Virus record (IMG/VR): IMGVR_UViG_2734482532_000005
Origin: a virus
Taxonomy: Duplodnaviria > Heunggongvirae > Uroviricota > Caudoviricetes
Direction: 5' to 3' (one strand)
Length of the DNA stretch: 8,785 nucleotides
Shown: positions 1 through 8,000 of the stretch, one piece after another
Position numbering within the stretch: the first letter of the stretch is position 1
How the letters are laid out: every line of letters begins with the position of its first letter
Program-made: the position numbers and the translations under genes
Notes under the pieces: model-generated
What the model was told of the DNA's origin: nothing
Database searches by the model: none
What the model saw: only the letters and a program-made list of their open reading frames with translations

Positions 1-2610
1 GCAGATGGCCAGAGTCAGGCGTCATTTTTCCGGTACGGAAAGTGATGCGAAAAAAACAGCGGCAGTCGTTGAACAGTCGCTGAGCCGACAGGCGCTGGCT
101 GCACAGAAAGCGGGGATTTCCGTCGGGCAGTATAAAGCCGCCATGCGTATGCTGCCTGCACAGTTCACCGACGTGGCCACGCAGCTTGCAGGGGGGCAGA
201 ATCCCTGGCTGATCCTGCTGCAACAGGGTGGTCAGGTTAAGGACTCCTTCGGCGGGATGATCCCCATGTTCAGGGGGCTTGCCGGCGCGATCACCCTGCC
301 GATGGTGGGGGCCACCTCGCTGGCGGTGGCGACCGGTGCGCTGGCGTATGCCTGGTATCAGGGCAACTCAACCCTGTCCGATTTCAACAAAACGCTGGTC
401 CTTTCCGGTAATCAGGCGGGACTGACGGCAGATCGTATGCTGGTCCTGTCCAGAGCCGGGCAGGCGGCAGGGCTGACGTTTAACCAGACCAGCGAGTCAC
501 TCAGCGCACTGGTTAAGGCGGGGGTAAGCGGTGAGGCTCAGATTGCGTCCATCAGCCAGAGTGTGGCGCGTTTCTCCTATGCATCCGGCGTGGAGGTGGA
601 CAAGGTCGCTGAAGCCTTCGGGAAGCTGACCACAGACCCGACGTCGGGGCTGACGGCGATGGCACGCCAGTTCCATAACGTGACGNNNNNNNNNNNNNNN
701 NNNNNNNNNNNNNNNNNNNNNNNNNNNNNNNNNNNNNNNNNNNNNNNNNNNNNNNNNNNNNNNNNNNNNNNNNNNNNNNNNNNNNNNNNNNNNNNNNNNN
801 NNNNNNNNNNNNNNNNNNNNNNNNNNNNNNNNNNNNNNNNNNNNNNNNNNNNNNNNNNNNNNNNNNNNNNNNNNNNNNNNNNNNNNNNNNNNNNNNNNNN
901 NNNNNNNNNNNNNNNNNNNNNNNNNNNNNNNNNNNNNNNNNNNNNNNNNNNNNNNNNNNNNNNNNNNNNNNNNNGCGCAAGGATGATTATTTCGTTAACG
1001 ATGAAGCACGGGCGCGTTACTGGGATGATCGTGAAAAAAAACGCCTGGAGCGGGATGCAGCCCAAAAGAGGGTAGATCAACAGCGTCAACAGGACAAAAA
1101 TGCGCAGCAGCAGAGCGATACCGAAGCGTCACGGCTGAAATATACCGAAGAGGCGCAGAAGGCTTACGAACGGCTGCAGACGCCGCTGGAGAAATATACC
1201 GCCCGTCAGGAAGAACTGAACAAGGCACTGAAAGACGGAAAAATCCTGCAGGCAGATTACAACACGCTGATGGCGGCGGCGAAAAAGGATTATGAAGCGA
1301 CGCTGAAAAAGCCGAAACAGTCCGGCGTGAAGGTGTATGCGGGCGATCGTCAGGAAGACAGTGCTCATGCGGCCCTGCTGACGCTTCAGGCAGAACTCCG
1401 GACGCTGGAGAAGCATGCCGGAGCGAATGAGAAAATCAGCCAGCAGCGCCGGGATTTGTGGAAGGCAGAAAGTCAGTTCGCGGTACTGGAGGAGGCGGCA
1501 CAACGTCGCCAGCTGTCCGCACAGGAGAAATCCCTGCTGGCGCATAAAGACGAGACGCTGGAGTACAAACGCCAGCTGGCTGCACTTGGTGACAAGGTTA
1601 CGTATCAGGAGCACCTGAATGCGCTGGCGCAGCAGGCGGATAAATTCGCACAGCAGCAACGGGCAAAACGGGCAGCCATTGATGCGAAAAACCGGGGGCT
1701 GACTGACCGGCAGGCAGCGCGGGAAGCCACGGAACAGCGCCTGAAGGAACAGTATGGCGATAATCCTCTGGCGCTGAATAACGTCATGTCAGAGCAGAAA
1801 AAGACCTGGGCGGCTGAAGACCAGCTTCGCGGGAGCTGGATGGCAGGCCTGAAGTCCGGCTGGAGTGAGTGGGAAGAGAGCGCCACGGACAGTATGTCAC
1901 AGGTTAAAAGTGCAGCCACGCAGACCTTTGATGGTATTGCACAGAATATGGCGGCGATGCTGACCGGCAGTGAACAGAACTGGCGCAGCTTCACCCGCTC
2001 CGTGCTGTCCATGATGACAGAAATTCTGCTTAAGCAGGCAATGGTGGGGATTGTCGGGAGTATCGGCAGCGCCATTGGCGGGGCTGTTGGTGGCGGCGCA
2101 TCCGCGTCAGGTGGTACAGCCATTCAGGCCGCTGCGGNNNNNNNNNNNNNNNNNNNNNNNNNNNNNNNNNNNNNNNNNNNNNNNNNNNNNNNNNNNNNNN
2201 NNNNNNNNNNNNNNNNNNNNNNNNNNNNNNNNNNNNNNNNNNNNNNNNNNNNNNNNNNNNNNNNNNNNNNNNNNNNNNNNNNNNNNNNNNNNNNNNNNNN
2301 NNNNNNNNNNNNNNNNNNNNNNNNNNNNNNNNNNNNNNNNNNNNNNNNNNNNNNNNNNNNNNNNNNNNNNNNNNNNNNNNNNNNNNNNNNNNNNNNNNNN
2401 NNNNNNNNNNNNNNNNNNNNNNNNNNNNNNNNNNNNNNNNNNNNNNNNNNNNNNNNNNNNNNNNNNGTGGTGATTCAGAACGACGGTACGAATGGTCTGC
2501 CAGGTCCACAGATGATGAAGGCAGTGTATGACATGGCCCGCAAGGGTGCCCGTGATGAAATTCAGACACAGATGCGTGATGGTGGCCTGTTCTCCGGAGG
2601 TGGACGATGA
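1..2610 (+). CDS. H: Tail tape measure protein (lambda gpH-like), 5'-partial; reads in frame 2 from 2 to 685, then in frame 1 from 976 to the TGA at 2608-2610; interrupted by N-runs 686-974 and 2138-2466
   Basis: Translation MARVRRHFSGTESDAKKTAAVVEQSLSRQALAAQKAGISVGQYKAAMRMLPAQF... before gap 1 and RKDDYFVNDEARARYWDDREK...QADYNTLMAAAKKDYEATLKKPKQ...MVGIVGSIGSAIGGAVGGGASASGGTAIQAAA...NDGTNG...KAVYDMARKGARDEIQTQMRDGGLFSGGGR after it match my recollection of lambda gpH nearly residue for residue. The ORF enters from the window edge (position 1 is the last base of a codon). The stop overlaps the M start as ATGA. The track ORF 1270..2610 is simply the first Met after the gap in the same frame. Confidence 0.93.
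686..974. other. Masked/unknown sequence (289 N) inside the H coding region; not frame-preserving
   Basis: Run of N. H reads in frame 2 up to 685 and in frame 1 from 976, so the run length is off by one from a frame-preserving length. Confidence 0.99.
2138..2466. other. Masked/unknown sequence (329 N) inside the H coding region; frame-preserving
   Basis: Run of N. The same frame (1) continues from AAA before the gap to VVIQNDGTNG after it. Confidence 0.99.
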
Positions 2611-2936
2611 AAACCTTCCGCTGGAAAGTGAAACCCGGTATGGATGTGGCTTCGGCCCCTTCTGTAAGAAAGGTGCGCTTTGGTGATGGCTATTCCCAGC
2701 GAGCGCCTGCCGGGCTGAATGCCAACCTGAAAACGTACAGCGTGACGCTTTCTGTCCCCCGTGAGGAGGCCATGGTACTGGAGTCGTTTCTGGAAGAGCA
2801 CGGGGGCTGGAAAGCCTTTCTGTGGACGCCGCCTTATGAGTGGCGGCAGATAAAGGTGACCTGCGCAAAATGGTCGTCGCGGGTCAGTATGCTGCGTGTT
2901 GAGTTCAGCGCAGAGTTTGAACAGGTGGTGAACTGA
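2607..2936 (+). CDS. M: Minor tail protein M (lambda gpM-like), 109 aa
   Basis: ORF translation MKTFRWKVKPGMDVASAPSVRKVRFGDGYSQRAPAGLNANLKTYSVTLSVPREEAMVLESFLEEHGGWKAFLWTPPYEWRQIKVTCAKWSSRVSMLRVEFSAEFEQVVN matches lambda gpM in length and sequence as I recall it. The start ATG at 2607 overlaps the H stop (ATGA), and the stop TGA at 2934-2936 overlaps the L start (TGATG). Confidence 0.95.
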   Translation: MKTFRWKVKPGMDVASAPSVRKVRFGDGYSQRAPAGLNANLKTYSVTLSVPREEAMVLESFLEEHGGWKAFLWTPPYEWRQIKVTCAKWSSRVSMLRVEFSAEFEQVVN

Positions 2937-3673
2937 TGCAGGATATCCGGCAGGAAACACTGAATGAATGCACCCGTGCGGAGCAGTCGGCCAGCGTGGT
3001 GCTCTGGGAAATCGATCTGACAGAGGTCGGTGGAGAACGTTATTTTTTCTGTAATGAGCAGAACGAAAAAGGTGAGCCGGTCACCTGGCAGGGGCGACAG
3101 TATCAGCCGTATCCCATTCAGGGGAGTGGTTTTGAACTGAATGGCAAAGGCACCAGTACGCGCCCCACGCTGATGGTTTCTAACCTGTACGGTATGGTCA
3201 CCGGGATGGCNNNNNNNNNNNNNNNNNNNNNNNNNNNNNNNNNNNNNNNNNNNNNNNNNNNNNNNNNNNNNNNNNNNNNNNNNNNNNNNNNNNNNNNNNN
3301 NNNNNNNNNNNNNNNNNNNNNNNNNNNNNNNNNNNNNNNNNNNNNNNNNNNNNNNNNNNNNNNNNNNNNNNNNNNNNNNNNNNNNNNNNNNNNNNNNNNN
3401 NNNNNNNNNNNNNNNNNNNNNNNNNNNNNNNNNNNNNNNNNNNNNNNNNNNNNNNNNNNNNNNNNNNNNNNNNNNNNNNNNNNNNNNNNNNNNNNNNNNN
3501 NNNNNNNNNNNNNNNNNNNNNNNNNNNNNNNNNNNNNNNNCGCGGATGAATATGACCAGCCAACGTCCGACATCACGAAGGATAAATGCAGCAAATGCCT
3601 GAGTGGCTGTAAGTTTCGCAATAACGTCGGCAACTTTGGCGGCTTCCTTTCCATTAACAAACTTTCGCAGTAA
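2936..3673 (+). CDS. L: Minor tail protein L (lambda gpL-like), interrupted by N-run 3211-3540
   Basis: N-terminus MQDIRQETLNECTRAEQSASVVLWEIDLTEVGGERYFFCNEQNEKGEPVTWQGRQYQPYPIQGSGFELNGKGTSTRPTLMVSNLYGMVTGM and C-terminus ADEYDQPTSDITKDKCSKCLSGCKFRNNVGNFGGFLSINKLSQ (Cys-rich tail) match lambda gpL as I recall it. The frame is continuous across the 330-N gap. Stop TAA at 3671-3673. Confidence 0.93.
   Translation: MQDIRQETLNECTRAEQSASVVLWEIDLTEVGGERYFFCNEQNEKGEPVTWQGRQYQPYPIQGSGFELNGKGTSTRPTLMVSNLYGMVTGMXXXXXXXXXXXXXXXXXXXXXXXXXXXXXXXXXXXXXXXXXXXXXXXXXXXXXXXXXXXXXXXXXXXXXXXXXXXXXXXXXXXXXXXXXXXXXXXXXXXXXXXXXXXXXXXADEYDQPTSDITKDKCSKCLSGCKFRNNVGNFGGFLSINKLSQ
3211..3540. other. Masked/unknown sequence (330 N) inside the L coding region; frame-preserving
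   Basis: Run of N. 330 is a multiple of 3 and the L frame is maintained on both sides. Confidence 0.99.
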
Positions 3674-3678
3674 ATCCC

Positions 3679-4422
3679 ATGACAGAGACAGAATCAGCGA
3701 TTCTGGCGCACGCCCGGCGATGTGCTCCAGCGGAGTCGTGCGGCTTCGTGGTAAGAACGCCGGAGGGGGAAAGATATTTCCCCTGCGTGAATATCTCCGG
3801 TGAGCCGGAGGCGTATTTCCGTATGTCGCCGGAAGACTGGCTGCAGGCAGAGATGCAGGGTGAGATTGTGGCACTGGTCCACAGCCACCCCGGTGGTCTG
3901 CCCTGGCTGAGTGAGGCCGACCGGCGGCTGCAGGTGCAGAGTGATTTGCCGTGGTGGCTGGTCTGCCGGGGGGCGATTCACAAGTTCCGCTGTGTGCCAC
4001 ATCTTACCGGGCGGCGCTTTGAGCACGGGGTGACGGACTGTTACACGCTGTTCCGGGATGCTTACCATCTGGCGGGGATTGAGATGCCGGATTTTCATCG
4101 TGAGGATGACTGGTGGCGTCACGGTCAGAATCTCTATCTGGATAATCTGGAGGCCACAGGGCTGTATCAGGTGCCGTTGTCAGCGGCGCAGCCGGGCGAT
4201 GTGCTGCTGTGCTGTTTTGGTTCATCGGTGCCGAATCATGCCGCCATTTACTGTGGTGACGGCGAGCTGCTGCACCATATTCCTGAACAACTGAGTAAAC
4301 GAGAGAGGTACACCGACAAATGGCAGCGACGCACACACTCCCTCTGGCGTCACCGGGCATGGCACGCATCTGCCTTTACGGGGATTTGCAACGATTTGGC
4401 CGCCGCATCGACCTTCGTGTGA
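3679..4422 (+). CDS. K: Tail assembly protein K (lambda gpK-like): N-terminal MPN/JAMM (JAB) domain plus C-terminal NlpC/P60-type cysteine peptidase domain
   Basis: Translation MTETESAILAHARRCAPAESCGFVV...EIVALVHSHPGGLPWLSEADRR... contains a JAMM-like H-x-H...S-x-x-D motif (HSH codons near 3880-3888). Downstream, ...RRFEHGVTDCYTLFRDAYHLAG... (Cys codon 4040-4042) and ...SSVPNHAAIYCGDGELLHHIPE (His codon 4237-4239) are consistent with an NlpC/P60 Cys/His active site. The sequence matches lambda gpK as I recall it. The start is ambiguous: ATG 3679 sits 5 nt after the L stop with a weak Shine-Dalgarno, while the in-frame ATG at 3823 follows GGAGG at 3808-3812 and corresponds to the classical 199-aa lambda K start. 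Confidence 0.88.
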   Translation: MTETESAILAHARRCAPAESCGFVVRTPEGERYFPCVNISGEPEAYFRMSPEDWLQAEMQGEIVALVHSHPGGLPWLSEADRRLQVQSDLPWWLVCRGAIHKFRCVPHLTGRRFEHGVTDCYTLFRDAYHLAGIEMPDFHREDDWWRHGQNLYLDNLEATGLYQVPLSAAQPGDVLLCCFGSSVPNHAAIYCGDGELLHHIPEQLSKRERYTDKWQRRTHSLWRHRAWHASAFTGICNDLAAASTFV

Positions 4423-4991
4423 AAACGGGTGCCGAAGCCATCCGGGCGATGGCCACACAGCTCCCTGCGTTTCGTCAGAAGCTGAGCGACGGCTGGTATC
4501 AGGTGCGTATTGCCGGGCAGGATGTTAGCACGTCCGGATTAACGGCACAGTTACATGAGGCTCTGCCTGACGGCGCTGTGATTCATATTGTTCCCAGAGT
4601 CGCCGGGGCCAAGTCAGGTGGTGTATTCCAGATTGTCCTGGGAGCAGCCGCCATTGCCGGATCATTCTTTACCGCCGGAGCCACCCTTGCAGCATGGGGG
4701 GCTGCCATTGGTGCCGGTGGTATGACCGGCATTCTGTTTTCTCTCGGTGCCAGTATGGTGCTCGGCGGTGTGGCTCAGATGCTGGCACCGAAAGCCAGAA
4801 CTCCCCGCACACAGACAACGGATAACGGTAAGCAGAACACCTATTTCTCCTCACTGGATAACATGGTTGCCCAGGGCAATGTTATGCCTGTTCTGTATGG
4901 TGAAATGCGCGTGGGGTCACGTGTGGTATCTCAGGAGATCAGCACGGCAGACGAAGGGGACGGTGGTCAGGTTGTGGTGATTGGTCGCTGA
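4320..4991 (+). CDS. I: Tail assembly protein I (lambda gpI-like), 223 aa; 5' end overlaps the K 3' end by 103 nt in a different frame
   Basis: Translation MAATHTLPLASPGMARICLYGDLQRFGRRIDLRVKTGAEAIRAMATQLPAFRQKL...VPRVAGAKSGGVFQIVLGAAAIAGSFFTAGATLAAWGAAIGAGGMTGILFSLGASMVLGGVAQMLAP...VVVIGR has the length and sequence of lambda gpI as I recall it. The K/I overlap is the same as in lambda. Stop TGA at 4989-4991. Confidence 0.92.
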   Translation: MAATHTLPLASPGMARICLYGDLQRFGRRIDLRVKTGAEAIRAMATQLPAFRQKLSDGWYQVRIAGQDVSTSGLTAQLHEALPDGAVIHIVPRVAGAKSGGVFQIVLGAAAIAGSFFTAGATLAAWGAAIGAGGMTGILFSLGASMVLGGVAQMLAPKARTPRTQTTDNGKQNTYFSSLDNMVAQGNVMPVLYGEMRVGSRVVSQEISTADEGDGGQVVVIGR

Positions 4992-5039
4992 TGCAAAATG
5001 TTTTATGTGAAATCGCCTCCGGGCGGTTTTATCGTTTAT

Positions 5040-5051: not shown

Positions 5052-8000
5052 ATGGGTAAAGGCAGCAGTAAGGGGCATACCCCGCGCGAAGCGAAGGACA
5101 ACCTGAAGTCCACGCAGCTGCTGAGTGTGATCGATGCCATCAGCGAAGGGCCGGTTGAAGGTCCGGTGGATGGATTAAAAAGCGTGCTGCTGAACAGTAC
5201 GCCGGTGCTGGACAGTGAGGGGAATACCAACATCTCCGGCGTCACGGTGGTGTTCCGGGCAGGTGAGCAGGAGCAGTCACCGCCGGAGGGATTTGAATCC
5301 TCCGGCTCCGAGACGGTGCTGGGTACGGAAGTGAAATATGACACGCCGATCACCCGGACCATCACGTCGGCAAACATTGACCGACTGCGTTTTACCTTCG
5401 GTGTACAGGCACTGGTGGAAACCACCTCAAAGGGAGACAGGAATCCGTCTGAAGTTCGCCTGCTGGTTCAGATACAGCGTAACGGTGGCTGGGTGACGGA
5501 AAAAGACATCACCATTAAGGGCAAAACCACCTCGCAGTATCTGGCCTCGGTGGTGGTGGATAACCTGCCGCCGCGCCCGTTTAATATCCGGATGCGCAGA
5601 ATGACGCCGGACAGCACCACAGACCAGCTGCAGAACAAAACGCTCTGGTCGTCATACACCGAAATCATCGATGTGAAACAGTGCTACCCGAACACGGCAC
5701 TGGTCGGCGTGCAGGTGGACTCGGAGCAGTTCGGCAGCCAGCAGGTGAGCCGTAATTATCATCTTCGCGGGCGCATTCTGCAGGTGCCGTCGAACTATAA
5801 TCCGCAGACGCGGCAATACAGCGGTATCTGGGACGGAACGTTAAAACCGGCATACAGCAACAACATGGCCTGGTGTCTGTGGGATATGCTGACCCATCCG
5901 CGCTATGGCATGGGGAAACGTCTTGGTGCGGCAGATGTGGATAAATGGGCGCTGTATGTCATCGGCCAGTACTGTGACCAGTCGGTGCCGGACGGCTTTG
6001 GCAGCACGGAGCCGCGCATCACCTGTAATGCCTGGCTGACCACACAGCGCAAGGCGTGGGATGTGCTCAGTGATTTCTGCTCGGCGATGCGCTGTATGCC
6101 GGTATGGAACGGGCAGACGCTGACGTTCGTGCAGGACCGACAGTCGGATAAGGTGTGGGCCTATAACCGCAGTAATGTGGTGATGCCGGATGATGGCGCG
6201 CCGTTCCGCTACAGTTTCAGCGCCCTGAAAGACCGCCATAATGCCGTTGAGGTGAACTGGATTGACCCGGATAACGGCTGGGAGACGGCGACAGAGCTTG
6301 TGGAGGATACGCAGGCCATTGCCCGTTACGGTCGTAACGTCACGAAGATGGATGCNNNNNNNNNNNNNNNNNNNNNNNNNNNNNNNNNNNNNNNNNNNNN
6401 NNNNNNNNNNNNNNNNNNNNNNNNNNNNNNNNNNNNNNNNNNNNNNNNNNNNNNNNNNNNNNNNNNNNNNNNNNNNNNNNNNNNNNNNNNNNNNNNNNNN
6501 NNNNNNNNNNNNNNNNNNNNNNNNNNNNNNNNNNNNNNNNNNNNNNNNNNNNNNNNNNNNNNNNNNNNNNNNNNNNNNNNNNNNNNNNNNNNNNNNNNNN
6601 NNNNNNNNNNNNNNNNNNNNNNNNNNNNNCACGCTGCCATCCTCCGGCACCACGCTGATAAGCCTGGTTGACGGGCAGGGGAATCCGGTCAGCGTGGAGG
6701 TCCAGTCCGTCACCGACGGCGTGAAGGTAAAAGTGAGCCGTGTTCCTGACGGTGTTGCTGAATACAGCGTGTGGGGGCTGAAGCTGCCGACGCTGCACCA
6801 GCGATTGTTCCGCTGCGTGAGTATCCGTGAGAACGACGACGGCACGTATGCCATCACCGCCGTGCAGCATGTGCCGGAAAAAGAAGCCATCGTGGATAAC
6901 GGGGCGCACTTTGACGGCGACCAGAGCGGCACGGTGAATGGTGTCACGCCGCCAGCGGTGCAGCACCTGACTGCCGAAGTCACCGCAGACAGCGGGGAAT
7001 ATCAGGTGCTGGCGCGCTGGGACACGCCGAAGGTGGTGAAGGGCGTGAGCTTCCTGCTCCGTCTGACCGTAACAGCGGATGACGGCAGTGAGCGGCTGGT
7101 CAGCACGGCCCGGACGACGGAAACCACTTACCGCTTCACACAACTGGCGCTGGGGAACTACAGGCTGACAGTCCGGGCAGTAAATGCGTGGGGGCAGCAG
7201 GGCGATCCGGCGTCGGTATCGTTCCGGATTGCCGCACCGGCAGCGCTGTCGCGGATTGAGCTGACGCCGGGCTATTTTCAGATAACCGCCACGCCGCATC
7301 TTGCGGTTTATGATCCGACGGTACAGTTTGAGTTCTGGTTCTCGGAAAAGCGGATTGCGGATATCAGGCAGGTTGAAACCACAGCACGCTATCTTGGCAC
7401 GGCGCTGTACTGGATAGCCGCCAGTATCAATATCAAACCGGGCCATGATTATTACTTTTATATCCGCAGTGTGAACACCGTTGGCAAATCGGCATTCGTG
7501 GAGGCTGTTGGTCAGCCGAGTGATGATGCATCCGGTTATCTGGATTTTTTCAAAGGCGAGATAGGGAAAACCCATCTGGCTCAGGAGCTGTGGACGCAGA
7601 TTGATAACGGTCAGCTTGCGCCTGACCTGGCTGAAATCAGGACGTCCATTACGGATGTCAGCAATGAAATCACGCAGACCGTCAATAAGAAACTGGAAGA
7701 CCAGAGTGCGGCAATTCAGCAGATACAGAAGGTTCAGGTTGATACAAATAATAACCTGAACAGCATGTGGGCTGTGAAGCTGCAGCAGATGCAGGACGGA
7801 CGCCTTTATATCGCGGGTATTGGTGCCGGTATTGAGAACACCCCTGACGGCATGCAGAGTCAGGTGCTGCTGGCGGCGGACAGGATTGCGATGGTTAATC
7901 CTGCGAATGGCAACACAAAACCGATGTTTGTTGGTCAGGGCGATCAGATATTCATGAACGACGTGTTCCTGAAACGCCTGACGGCCCCCACCATTACCAG

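What the first reader, a model, noticed from the sequence alone, without database searches (positions are those of the whole stretch)
3679..4991. K and I form a peptidase plus ubiquitin-like pair with an internal Gly-Gly in I
K carries a JAMM/MPN motif (ALVHSHPGGLPWLSEAD) followed by an NlpC/P60-like Cys/His domain (VTDCYTLF … VPNHAAIY). I begins with a compact ~95-residue domain ending …VIHIVPRVAGAKSGG (Gly-Gly codons 4617-4622), immediately followed by a long Gly/Ala-rich hydrophobic segment (VFQIVLGAAAIAGSFFTAGATLAAWGAAIGAGGMTGILFSLGASMVLGG). Comparative-genomic work has proposed that lambda I has a ubiquitin-like beta-grasp N-domain that the JAB domain of K processes at the Gly-Gly. The arrangement is fully preserved here, including the 103-nt out-of-frame K/I overlap. 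It is a known but experimentally under-characterised system.
Basis: partly seen in the sequence, partly recalled or inferred. Interest (0 to 1): 0.45.

Follow-up and report, generated by a model that had tools for sequence, protein, structure and literature searches.

The report
Lambda tail-tip K protease and I

Summary
K (3679-4422, 247 aa) has a complete JAMM/MPN+ motif (E19, H68-S69-H70, S78, D81) and an NlpC/P60 Cys-His-His triad (C121, H187, H199). I (4320-4991, 223 aa) has an N-terminal domain, a Gly-Gly at residues 100-101 (nt 4617-4622), two Gly/Ala-rich hydrophobic helices and a C-terminal plug domain. The genes overlap by 103 nt.

Structure prediction and fold search support all three proposed folds. 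The I N-domain matches MoaD, SAMP1, CysO, SUMO and ubiquitin. K matches P. furiosus JAMM1/Rpn11 and MepS/LytE.

The window is about 96% identical to lambda/434, and I is 97.8% identical to lambda gpI. All nine K catalytic residues are conserved in 16 diverse phages and in an F-pyocin locus.

One refinement: the Gly-Gly as such is not family-wide. G96 (95%) and G101 (82%) are conserved, whereas G100 is Gly in only 48% of distant homologs.

The proposal dates from Iyer et al. 2006. A 2026 F-pyocin preprint shows the I-homolog N-domain is removed on maturation. [quoted passage not shown]

Verdict: real, correctly interpreted and already known. Still open are the exact cut site and the role of the NlpC/P60 domain.

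The parts
3679..4422 (+). Gene K: tail-tip assembly protein, 247 aa, with two peptidase domains
   Evidence: ORF. Pfam Prok-JAB plus NLPC_P60. 98% identical to database clusters of 247 aa with thousands of members. AF2 mean pLDDT 88.2.
3679..3993 (+). K JAMM/MPN+ (Prok-JAB) metalloprotease domain, residues 1-105. Catalytic residues: E19 (nt 3733-3735), H68-S69-H70 (3880-3888), S78 (3910-3912), D81 (3919-3921)
   Evidence: Pfam PF14464, 5e-14. Sequence match to PDB 2kks, 2e-5. Foldseek top hits 5ld9/5lda (PfJAMM1), Rpn11 and CSN5. The motif is conserved in 16 of 16 diverse phages and in the F-pyocin locus.
4009..4353 (+). K NlpC/P60 (C40) papain-like domain, residues 111-225. Triad: C121 (nt 4039-4041), H187 (4237-4239), H199 (4273-4275)
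   Evidence: Pfam PF00877, 5.8e-13. Foldseek hits to MepS/Spr, LytE and Acd autolysins. The triad is conserved in every homolog examined.
4303..4308 (+). Shine-Dalgarno-like GAGAGG, 11 nt upstream of the I start codon and inside K
   Evidence: Sequence. The phage 434 record annotates a ribosome-binding site at the homologous place.
4320..4422 (+). K/I overlap of 103 nt; I is in the -1 frame relative to K. It encodes I residues 1-34 and the C-terminal helix of K
   Evidence: No X XXY YYZ slippery heptamer lies in the overlap. The MA[AT] start is conserved in enterobacterial relatives even where Met14 is replaced.
4320..4991 (+). Gene I: precursor of the tail-tip plug/insertion protein, 223 aa
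   Evidence: ORF. 97.8% identical to lambda gpI, with 5 substitutions. PDB 8iyk/8iyl/8k35/8xcg, E = 2e-139.
4359..4604 (+). I ubiquitin-like beta-grasp domain, residues 14-95
   Evidence: Pfam PF06805 over residues 14-97. AF2 topology is beta-beta-alpha-beta-beta-(short helix)-beta with block-mean pLDDT 66-86. Foldseek matches MoaD, SAMP1, CysO, SUMO, Urm1 and ubiquitin: E from 3e-4, prob 1.00, TM (target-normalised) 0.66-0.73.
4605..4622 (+).
   Evidence: pLDDT falls below 50 from residue 96. Conservation in distant homologs: G96 95%, A/S97 92%, G101 82%, G100 48%. Lambda gpI is reported resolved from residue 101 in the closed tail tip (PMC11101478).
4623..4769 (+). Two Gly/Ala-rich hydrophobic helices (H1/H2), residues 102-150
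   Evidence: Kyte-Doolittle windows above 1.6 start at residues 101-106 and 130-138, and 23 of 49 residues are A or G. Described as predicted transmembrane helices H1/H2 in PMC11101478.
4770..4988 (+). I C-terminal plug and beta-strand domain, residues 151-223. In lambda it sits as a trimer in the tip lumen under the C-terminus of gpH
   Evidence: Sequence identity to the solved lambda chains. Structural descriptions in PMC10721106, PMC11101478 and PMC12617516.

Best explanation
This is the K-I pair of a lambda-type siphophage or prophage tail-tip module (H-M-L-K-I-J).

I is made as a precursor. An N-terminal ubiquitin-like beta-grasp pro-domain (residues 14-95) is joined by a short glycine-containing linker (96-101) to the structural part: two hydrophobic helices and a plug domain.

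K is a non-structural assembly enzyme. During tail-tip assembly its JAMM/MPN+ zinc-metalloprotease domain acts like a deubiquitinase on a linear ubiquitin fusion. It cuts in the linker and releases the ubiquitin-like domain. [quoted passage not shown] At infection it is released towards the outer membrane.

The pro-domain probably keeps the hydrophobic helices soluble, blocks premature docking, or both. Its removal would then act as an assembly checkpoint.

Basis of each step:
- Shown here: folds, catalytic motifs, conservation and gene linkage.
- From the literature: the N-domain is absent from mature particles, and gpK is reported to cleave gpI.
- Inferred: the exact scissile bond (after G101, or at G96-A97) and the purpose of the pro-domain.
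- Unassigned: the substrate of the NlpC/P60 domain.
For: Identity of the window:
- It is about 96% identical in DNA to lambda-like phages, with the K, I, L and J annotations under the match.
- I differs from lambda gpI at 5 of 223 residues.

Folds and motifs:
- Pfam gives Prok-JAB plus NLPC_P60 in K and Lambda_tail_I in I.
- The AF2 model of I 1-112 is a beta-grasp that becomes disordered from G96. Its best PDB matches are MoaD, SAMP1, CysO, SUMO, Urm1 and ubiquitin.
- The AF2 model of K (pLDDT 88) matches PfJAMM1, including its SAMP2 complex 5lda, plus Rpn11 and CSN5, and separately MepS and LytE.
- NCBIfam gives a sub-threshold match to desampylase.

Conservation and linkage:
- All nine catalytic residues of K are conserved in 16 diverse phages. 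Their hosts are Escherichia, Klebsiella, Salmonella, Cronobacter, Mannheimia, Ralstonia, Burkholderia, Bordetella, Stenotrophomonas, Pseudomonas, Acinetobacter and Vibrio.
- The same holds in a P. paraeruginosa F-pyocin locus.
- In every case K lies upstream of an I homolog carrying the P92...G96-[AS]...G101 motif.

Literature:
- Virion gpI is resolved only from residue 101 (PMC11101478) or from 134/135 (PMC10721106 and PMC12617516).
- gpK was not found in virions by mass spectrometry.
- The single gpI peptide found by virion mass spectrometry (9.87% coverage) matches in length only the 22-residue C-terminal tryptic peptide.
- The N-terminal region of F-pyocin PA0640 is absent from mature particles but present in assembly-stalled mutants. 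Deleting the K homolog PA0639 gives tubes without tips.
- The original prediction is in PMC1779556.
Against: - Nothing here tests catalysis or the cut site. No complex model could be made.
- The direct evidence that gpK is the protease rests on a meeting summary, not on a paper I could read.
- The F-pyocin preprint says the protease is unidentified. It also says PA0640 expressed alone in E. coli lost its N-terminal region to unknown host proteases.
- G100 is poorly conserved. G101 is replaced or lies in a gapped column in about 18% of distant homologs, although the alignment in this loop is uncertain.
- If G101 really is present in the mature lambda model, the cut cannot be after G101.
- The virion mass-spectrometry argument is weak, because only one gpI peptide was detected at all.
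Confidence: 0.82

Rival explanations
1. The ubiquitin-like domain of I is removed, but not by the JAMM domain. The cut would be made by K's NlpC/P60 cysteine-peptidase domain or by host proteases acting on an exposed linker. The JAMM domain would then have another substrate or only a binding role.
For: - The NlpC/P60 triad is as strictly conserved as the JAMM motif in all homologs examined, so it must do something.
- Iyer et al. raised this possibility.
- PA0640 expressed alone in E. coli lost its N-terminal region to unknown host proteases, and the preprint calls the protease unidentified.
Against: - JAMM enzymes are the established processors of beta-grasp fusions ending in Gly. Foldseek pairs K with PfJAMM1-SAMP2.
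- The conference report attributes the cleavage to gpK and describes gpK as having a deubiquitinating domain.
- NlpC/P60 enzymes usually act on peptidoglycan stem peptides (established knowledge of the family).
Confidence: 0.1
2. K's deubiquitinase-like domain is mainly a counter-defence. It would strip ubiquitin-like proteins that bacterial Bil-type systems conjugate to the central tail fibre J. Its linkage to I would be incidental.
For: The authors of the Bil study speculate this for deubiquitinase domains in siphophage tail assembly proteins (10.1101/2023.09.04.556158). K acts on the same tip complex that contains J.
Against: - K is essential for tip assembly in hosts without Bil: deleting PA0639 gives tubes without tips, and gpK is required for lambda tail assembly (PMC12617516).
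- A JAMM-bearing K was found next to a ubiquitin-like I in every locus examined, which points to an internal substrate.
- Drexlerviridae phages sampled here encode full K homologs. SECphi27 and SECphi4 are sensitive to Bil, but I did not check whether they encode K.
Confidence: 0.04
3. The N-domain of I is never cleaved in lambda-type phages. It stays attached but is flexible and so invisible to cryo-EM, and K is only a chaperone with vestigial peptidase motifs.
For: Cryo-EM papers describe the N-domain merely as unresolved. Virion mass spectrometry detected only one gpI peptide, so absence of N-domain peptides is weak evidence.
Against: - Nine of nine catalytic residues are conserved across very distant K homologs, which argues against vestigial motifs.
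- F-pyocin proteomics distinguishes precursor from mature particles.
- The conference report states that cleavage occurs.
Confidence: 0.04

Closest known systems
Bacteriophage lambda gpK / gpI (tail tip assembly proteins K and I; PDB 8IYK, 8IYL, 8K35, 8XCG, 9E7M for gpI)
   Same: Same genes in the same order (H-M-L-K-I-J), with the same 103-nt K/I overlap. I is 97.8% identical (5 substitutions). The DNA is about 96% identical.
   Different: The window's K is an intact 247-aa ORF. Reference lambda NC_001416 lacks one G (window position about 3813), so its K is annotated as 199 aa without the N-terminal part of the JAMM domain, including Glu19. Otherwise there are only point substitutions.
F-type pyocin PA0639 / PA0640 (Pseudomonas)
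   Same: The K homolog has the full JAMM motif (HSHPDAPATPSMAD) and the NlpC/P60 triad. The I homolog has the same ubiquitin-like domain, G-S...S-G linker and hydrophobic helices. Removal of the N-domain on maturation has been shown experimentally.
   Different: It is a tailocin, not a phage. K and I do not overlap (54-nt gap in L099). The dipeptide is Ser-Gly rather than Gly-Gly. It is only distantly similar to window I (E about 1e-17).
Prokaryotic JAMM / ubiquitin-like pairs: HvJAMM1 or PfJAMM1 with SAMPs, Mec+ with CysO, and JAMM cleavage of MoaD-MoaE fusions
   Same: A small MPN+ metalloprotease paired with a ThiS/MoaD-type beta-grasp that ends in Gly, sometimes as a linear fusion that must be cut. 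These are the best structural matches of both models. Weak NCBIfam desampylase match.
   Different: No E1-like adenylating enzyme and no sulfur-transfer or conjugation context. The beta-grasp here is a disposable pro-domain of a virion protein. The tail after the last strand is longer (9 residues to G101), and the JAMM domain is fused to an NlpC/P60 domain.
Eukaryotic ubiquitin fusion precursors (polyubiquitin, Ub-ribosomal protein fusions) processed by deubiquitinases
   Same: Works alike: an N-terminal ubiquitin fold is translated in line with a cargo protein and is clipped off at its C-terminal glycine by a dedicated peptidase. (Comparison from established knowledge.)
   Different: There the ubiquitin is the reusable product. 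Here the downstream fragment is the product, and no fate of the ubiquitin-like domain is known. The sequence families differ (MoaD/ThiS-like rather than ubiquitin proper).

Membership tests
JAMM/MPN+ metalloprotease (Pfam Prok-JAB PF14464) | Profile match above the curated cut-off | tested here: met
   52.6 bits against a cut-off of 25, K residues 4-98.
JAMM/MPN+ metalloprotease (Pfam Prok-JAB PF14464) | Catalytic motif E-x(n)-H-[ST]-H-x7-S-x2-D | tested here: met
   E19, H68-S69-H70, seven residues, S78, two residues, D81. Conserved in 16 diverse phages and in the F-pyocin locus.
JAMM/MPN+ metalloprotease (Pfam Prok-JAB PF14464) | MPN fold | tested here: met
   AF2 pLDDT 88. Foldseek top hits 5ld9/5lda (PfJAMM1; E = 4e-5, TM 0.67 on the target), Rpn11 and CSN5.
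JAMM/MPN+ metalloprotease (Pfam Prok-JAB PF14464) | Zinc-dependent (iso)peptidase activity on a beta-grasp substrate | not testable with these tools
   Only a conference summary reports that gpK cleaves gpI.
NlpC/P60 (C40) papain-like peptidase (PF00877) | Profile match above the curated cut-off | tested here: met
   49.2 bits against a cut-off of 23, K residues 111-224, full-length model match.
NlpC/P60 (C40) papain-like peptidase (PF00877) | Cys-His-(His/polar) catalytic triad | tested here: met
   C121, H187 and H199 are invariant in close homologs and in the distant ones.
NlpC/P60 (C40) papain-like peptidase (PF00877) | Papain-like fold | tested here: met
   Foldseek hits to MepS/Spr (8xup, 2k1g), LytE (8i2e) and Acd autolysins, with TM 0.55-0.67 on the target.
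NlpC/P60 (C40) papain-like peptidase (PF00877) | Known substrate (peptidoglycan stem peptide or other) | not testable with these tools
   No substrate is known for K's domain. gpK was not detected in virions.
Lambda_tail_I / ThiS-MoaD-like ubiquitin-like beta-grasp (PF06805) | Profile match above the curated cut-off | tested here: met
   95.1 bits against a cut-off of 23.8, I residues 14-97, covering model positions 2-83 of 83.
Lambda_tail_I / ThiS-MoaD-like ubiquitin-like beta-grasp (PF06805) | Beta-grasp fold | tested here: met
   AF2 strands and helices in beta-grasp order; mean pLDDT 71.1 over the whole 112-residue model and block means of 66-86 over residues 11-90. Foldseek matches MoaD, SAMP1, CysO, SUMO, Urm1, ThiS and ubiquitin, prob 1.00.
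Lambda_tail_I / ThiS-MoaD-like ubiquitin-like beta-grasp (PF06805) | Conserved glycine at the C-terminal end of the domain | tested here: met
   G96 is conserved in 95% and G101 in 82% of 77 distant homologs. The Gly-Gly dipeptide itself is present in only 47%.
Lambda_tail_I / ThiS-MoaD-like ubiquitin-like beta-grasp (PF06805) | Release of the domain by cleavage at that glycine | not testable with these tools
   Literature only. The exact bond is unknown.
Lambda gpI tail-tip plug (solved structures 8IYK etc.) | Sequence identity to the solved C-terminal structural part | tested here: met
   E = 2e-139 over residues 1-223. Residues 133-222 match 9e7m at E = 2e-51.

The most novel reading that the evidence does not exclude
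The strictly conserved NlpC/P60 domain of K has no assigned substrate. It could be the unknown protease that cuts the tape-measure protein gpH to gpH* in its glycine-rich C-terminal region. It could also make a second cut in I. Separately, K's deubiquitinase domain could also protect the J fibre from Bil-type ubiquitin-like conjugation. None of this is excluded by my evidence, and none was tested.
Probability: 0.1. Interest if true: 0.55.

Novelty: already known. Interest (0 to 1): 0.17.

Why it matters
The pair is a clean prokaryotic example of a ubiquitin-fold pro-domain removed by a JAMM deubiquitinase-type enzyme, used as an assembly checkpoint in a virus tail. It bears on the origin of ubiquitin processing and on how siphophage and tailocin tips are built. 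This particular copy adds nothing new. It is a near-identical relative of lambda, the idea dates from 2006, and experiments are now being reported. The useful residue is practical:
- K should be annotated at 247 aa.
- I should start at nt 4320.
- The family-conserved glycines are G96 and G101, not the Gly-Gly pair.
- The NlpC/P60 domain still lacks a substrate.

Tried and rejected
1. Programmed -1 frameshift making a K-I fusion. I is in the -1 frame relative to K, but the overlap has no X XXY YYZ heptamer. The K-I fusion ORFs in the databases are mostly single-member or very small clusters. Other phages separate K and I by morons. Rejected.

2. I starting at Met14 (nt 4359, giving a 64-nt overlap). 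Distant homologs and the fold do begin there. In enterobacterial relatives, however, the MA[AT] start is conserved even where residue 14 is Val or Leu. A GAGAGG precedes 4320, whereas nothing comparable precedes 4359. I kept 4320.

3. Wide locus sampling with the search for related loci. The diverse alignment had no usable conserved stretch. The closer alignment returned only loci 96-100% identical to the window. I sampled annotated phages by tblastn instead.

4. The one genome-contig scan, seeded with the PA0640 fragment, returned a single locus. That was enough to read the F-pyocin K homolog.

5. P0282, a 2783-aa hit with 23 matched stretches, looked like a possible poly-ubiquitin-like protein. 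It is a junk repetitive ORF.

6. The Vibrio phage p41 seemed to have I without K. K lies about 1.7 kb upstream, beyond an insertion.

7. I found no paper or preprint from the group reported to have shown the gpK-gpI cleavage.

8. A K-I complex model was not possible with the single-chain predictor.
Full report
**What is in the window**

The 8785-base window carries the lambda-type tail-tip module on the + strand.
- H (tape measure) runs up to 2610.
- M is 2607-2936, L is 2936-3673, K is 3679-4422 and I is 4320-4991.
- J starts at 5052.
- Four masked N runs lie at 686-974, 2138-2466, 3211-3540 and 6356-6629.

Pfam identifies M, L, K and I. The 1.5 kb around the finding is 96-97% identical to lambda-like coliphages, including phage 434. 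The annotated K, I, L and J genes lie under the match. Lambda and 434 are annotated with the same gene order and the same 103-nt K/I overlap.

**Checking the observation**

- The JAMM segment ALVHSHPGGLPWLSEAD is K residues 65-81.
- The NlpC/P60 segments VTDCYTLF and VPNHAAIY are K residues 118-125 and 184-191.
- I has ...VIHIVPRVAGAKSGG as residues 87-101, with ggt ggt at 4617-4622.
- A 49-residue stretch follows (residues 102-150) in which 23 residues are Ala or Gly.

The Pfam scores are well above the curated cut-offs:
- Prok-JAB, 52.6 bits against 25.
- NLPC_P60, 49.2 bits against 23.
- Lambda_tail_I, 95.1 bits against 23.8.

**The folds**

AlphaFold2 on I residues 1-112, with 45 aligned homologs (41-94% identity), gives strands and helices in beta-grasp order between residues 14 and 92. 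Block-mean pLDDT is 66-86 across residues 11-90. It is below 50 for residues 1-6 and from residue 96 onward.

Foldseek against the PDB returns MoaD, SAMP1 and CysO first, followed by SUMO, Urm1, ThiS and ubiquitin. The E-values start at 3e-4, the probability is 1.00, and the target-normalised TM is 0.66-0.73.

AlphaFold2 on K (mean pLDDT 88.2) gives two domains and a C-terminal helix. Foldseek finds Pyrococcus furiosus JAMM1 first, both alone and bound to the ubiquitin-like SAMP2. Rpn11 and CSN5 follow. For the second domain it finds MepS/Spr, LytE and clostridial autolysins.

By sequence, the JAB domain matches PDB 2kks (2e-5). It also matches the NCBIfam desampylase model below threshold.

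**Catalytic residues and linkage across distant relatives**

K has E19, H68-S69-H70, S78 and D81, which is exactly E...H-S-H-x7-S-x2-D. It also has C121, H187 and H199.

I sampled 16 phages spread down a tblastn ranking of 1732 phage records that encode an I homolog. Their hosts range from Escherichia to Vibrio, Burkholderia and Acinetobacter. I also examined one F-pyocin locus from Pseudomonas paraeruginosa.
- Every locus has a K homolog upstream of I, with all nine residues conserved.
- In the Vibrio phage, K is separated from I by a 1.7-kb insertion.
- K and I overlap by 4-58 nt in most of the sampled phages.
- They are separated by inserted genes in HK022 and in the Mannheimia, Bordetella and Vibrio phages.

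The long overlap is therefore a feature of the lambda clade and not a requirement of the system.

**The glycines**

I looked at 77 cluster representatives less than 60% identical to the window. Conservation there is:
- P92: 100%, though only because the filter required it.
- G96: 95%.
- Residue 97 is Ala or Ser in 92%.
- G101: 82%.
- G100: only 48%.
- The dipeptide at 100-101 is GG in 47%. Otherwise it is NG, AG, SG and others.

The F-pyocin homolog has Ser-Gly.

The predicted fold ends at about residue 95 and the Pfam model ends at A97. By hand, the last strand and tail line up with ubiquitin as LHLVLRLRGG against IHIVPRVAGA. That would put ubiquitin G75-G76 opposite I G96-A97. This is my own inspection, not a tool result.

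Two candidate cut sites therefore exist: G96-A97, and G100/G101. One lambda structure is reported to resolve gpI from residue 101 onward (PMC11101478). That fits a cut at or just before G101, but does not prove one.

**What the literature already says**

Iyer, Burroughs and Aravind (2006, PMC1779556) described the ubiquitin-like domain of tail assembly protein I. They noted its conserved C-terminal glycine and its linkage to K with JAB and NlpC/P60 domains. They predicted that the JAB domain releases the ubiquitin-like domain.

Cryo-EM of lambda places a gpI trimer in the tip lumen as a plug under the C-terminus of gpH. It is resolved from residue 134/135 (PMC10721106 and PMC12617516) or from residue 101 (PMC11101478).

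gpK was not detected in virions. The one gpI peptide found by virion mass spectrometry gave 9.87% coverage. That corresponds in length only to the 22-residue C-terminal tryptic peptide, since 22/223 = 9.87%. This is consistent with loss of the N-domain, but it is weak evidence.

A 2026 preprint on the F-pyocin (10.64898/2026.02.24.707460) reports the following.
- The N-terminal region of PA0640 is absent from mature particles and present in assembly-stalled mutants.
- Deleting the K homolog PA0639 gives tubes without tips.
- The protease is not identified.
- PA0640 expressed alone in E. coli loses its N-terminal region to host proteases.

[quoted passage not shown] It adds that this happens only after gpI has engaged other tip proteins. 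I found no full paper on that work.

**Most likely mechanism**

I is a precursor whose ubiquitin-like pro-domain is clipped off by the JAMM domain of K during tip assembly. This leaves the hydrophobic helices and the plug domain in the tip.

The folds, motifs, conservation and linkage are shown here. The removal of the N-domain and the role of gpK come from the literature. The cut site and the purpose of the pro-domain are inference.

The main rivals are:
- cleavage by the NlpC/P60 domain or by host proteases;
- an anti-Bil counter-defence role for the deubiquitinase domain, as speculated by Hor et al.;
- no cleavage at all.

Together I give these about 0.18.

**Things that differ from the reference or are worth fixing**

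Reference lambda NC_001416 lacks one G present in the window and in phage 434 (GGAGGC-TATTTCC against GGAGGCGTATTTCC, window position about 3813). This puts the upstream ATG out of frame. It explains why RefSeq K is 199 aa and lacks Glu19. In 75 of 77 near-identical viral contigs the JAMM motif and the NlpC/P60 domain are in one ORF.

Databases carry three different starts for I, giving 223, 210 and 190 aa. Conservation of the MA[AT] start and the GAGAGG at 4303-4308 favour nt 4320. The 190-aa call would delete the first two strands of the fold.

**Verdict**

The finding is real and correctly read. It describes a textbook locus whose mechanism was predicted in 2006 and is now being confirmed. 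Novelty: already known. Interest is low. The open points are the exact scissile bond and the substrate of the NlpC/P60 domain.

Noticed in passing
window about 3813 (lambda NC_001416 about 14267): Reference lambda lacks one G that is present in the window and in phage 434. As a result its K is annotated as 199 aa, starting inside the JAMM domain and lacking Glu19. This is either a 1982 sequencing error or a lab-strain lesion. The window's K is intact at 247 aa. In 75 of 77 near-identical viral contigs the JAMM motif and the NlpC/P60 domain are in one ORF.
   Followed up: partly
window 4320, 4359 and 4419 (alternative I starts): Public annotations start I at three places, giving 223, 210 (Met14) and 190 (Met34) aa. 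Conservation of the MA[AT] N-terminus and the GAGAGG at 4303-4308 favour 4320. The 190-aa call would remove beta-strands 1 and 2 of the ubiquitin-like fold.
   Followed up: yes
database proteins P0152, P0205, P0135, P0235 and P0237; PHROGs phrog_28576, phrog_35166 and phrog_31: K-I fusion ORFs, and profiles that join K to I or I to J, exist in the databases. The fusion clusters hold one or two sequences, so most are probably frameshift or assembly errors. Iyer et al. 2006 also listed such fusions.
   Followed up: partly
L083 (HK022), L096 (Mannheimia), L098 (Bordetella), L101 10873-12466 (Vibrio p41), L090 2103-2651 (Stenotrophomonas CUB19): Extra genes are inserted between K and I in four phages; they are annotated as morons in HK022 and include an opposite-strand DNA-binding protein gene in the Vibrio phage. 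HNH homing endonuclease genes sit between I and J in CUB19. The K/I junction is a tolerated insertion site outside the lambda clade.
   Followed up: partly
protein P0282: A 2783-aa representative with 23 stretches matching I residues 10-63 looked like a poly-ubiquitin-like protein. It is a repetitive junk ORF with a chance resemblance (FGDFENLSRRMDLKVFADAIRASIREQL).
   Followed up: yes
window 686-974, 2138-2466, 3211-3540, 6356-6629: Four runs of N (274-330 bases each) mask parts of H, L and J. K and I are unaffected.
   Followed up: no
window about 2050-2137 (H, just before the second N run): This is the glycine-rich segment of the tape-measure protein (...IGSAIGGAVGGGASASGGTAIQAAA). In lambda, gpH is cut to gpH* in a glycine-rich C-terminal region by an unidentified protease (PMC12617516). 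K's NlpC/P60 domain is an untested candidate.
   Followed up: no
window 5013-5032 (I-J intergenic): A short hairpin (CGCC-TCCG-GGCG) followed by TTTTAT lies at the place homologous to a terminator annotated in the phage 434 record. The terminator scan did not call it.
   Followed up: partly
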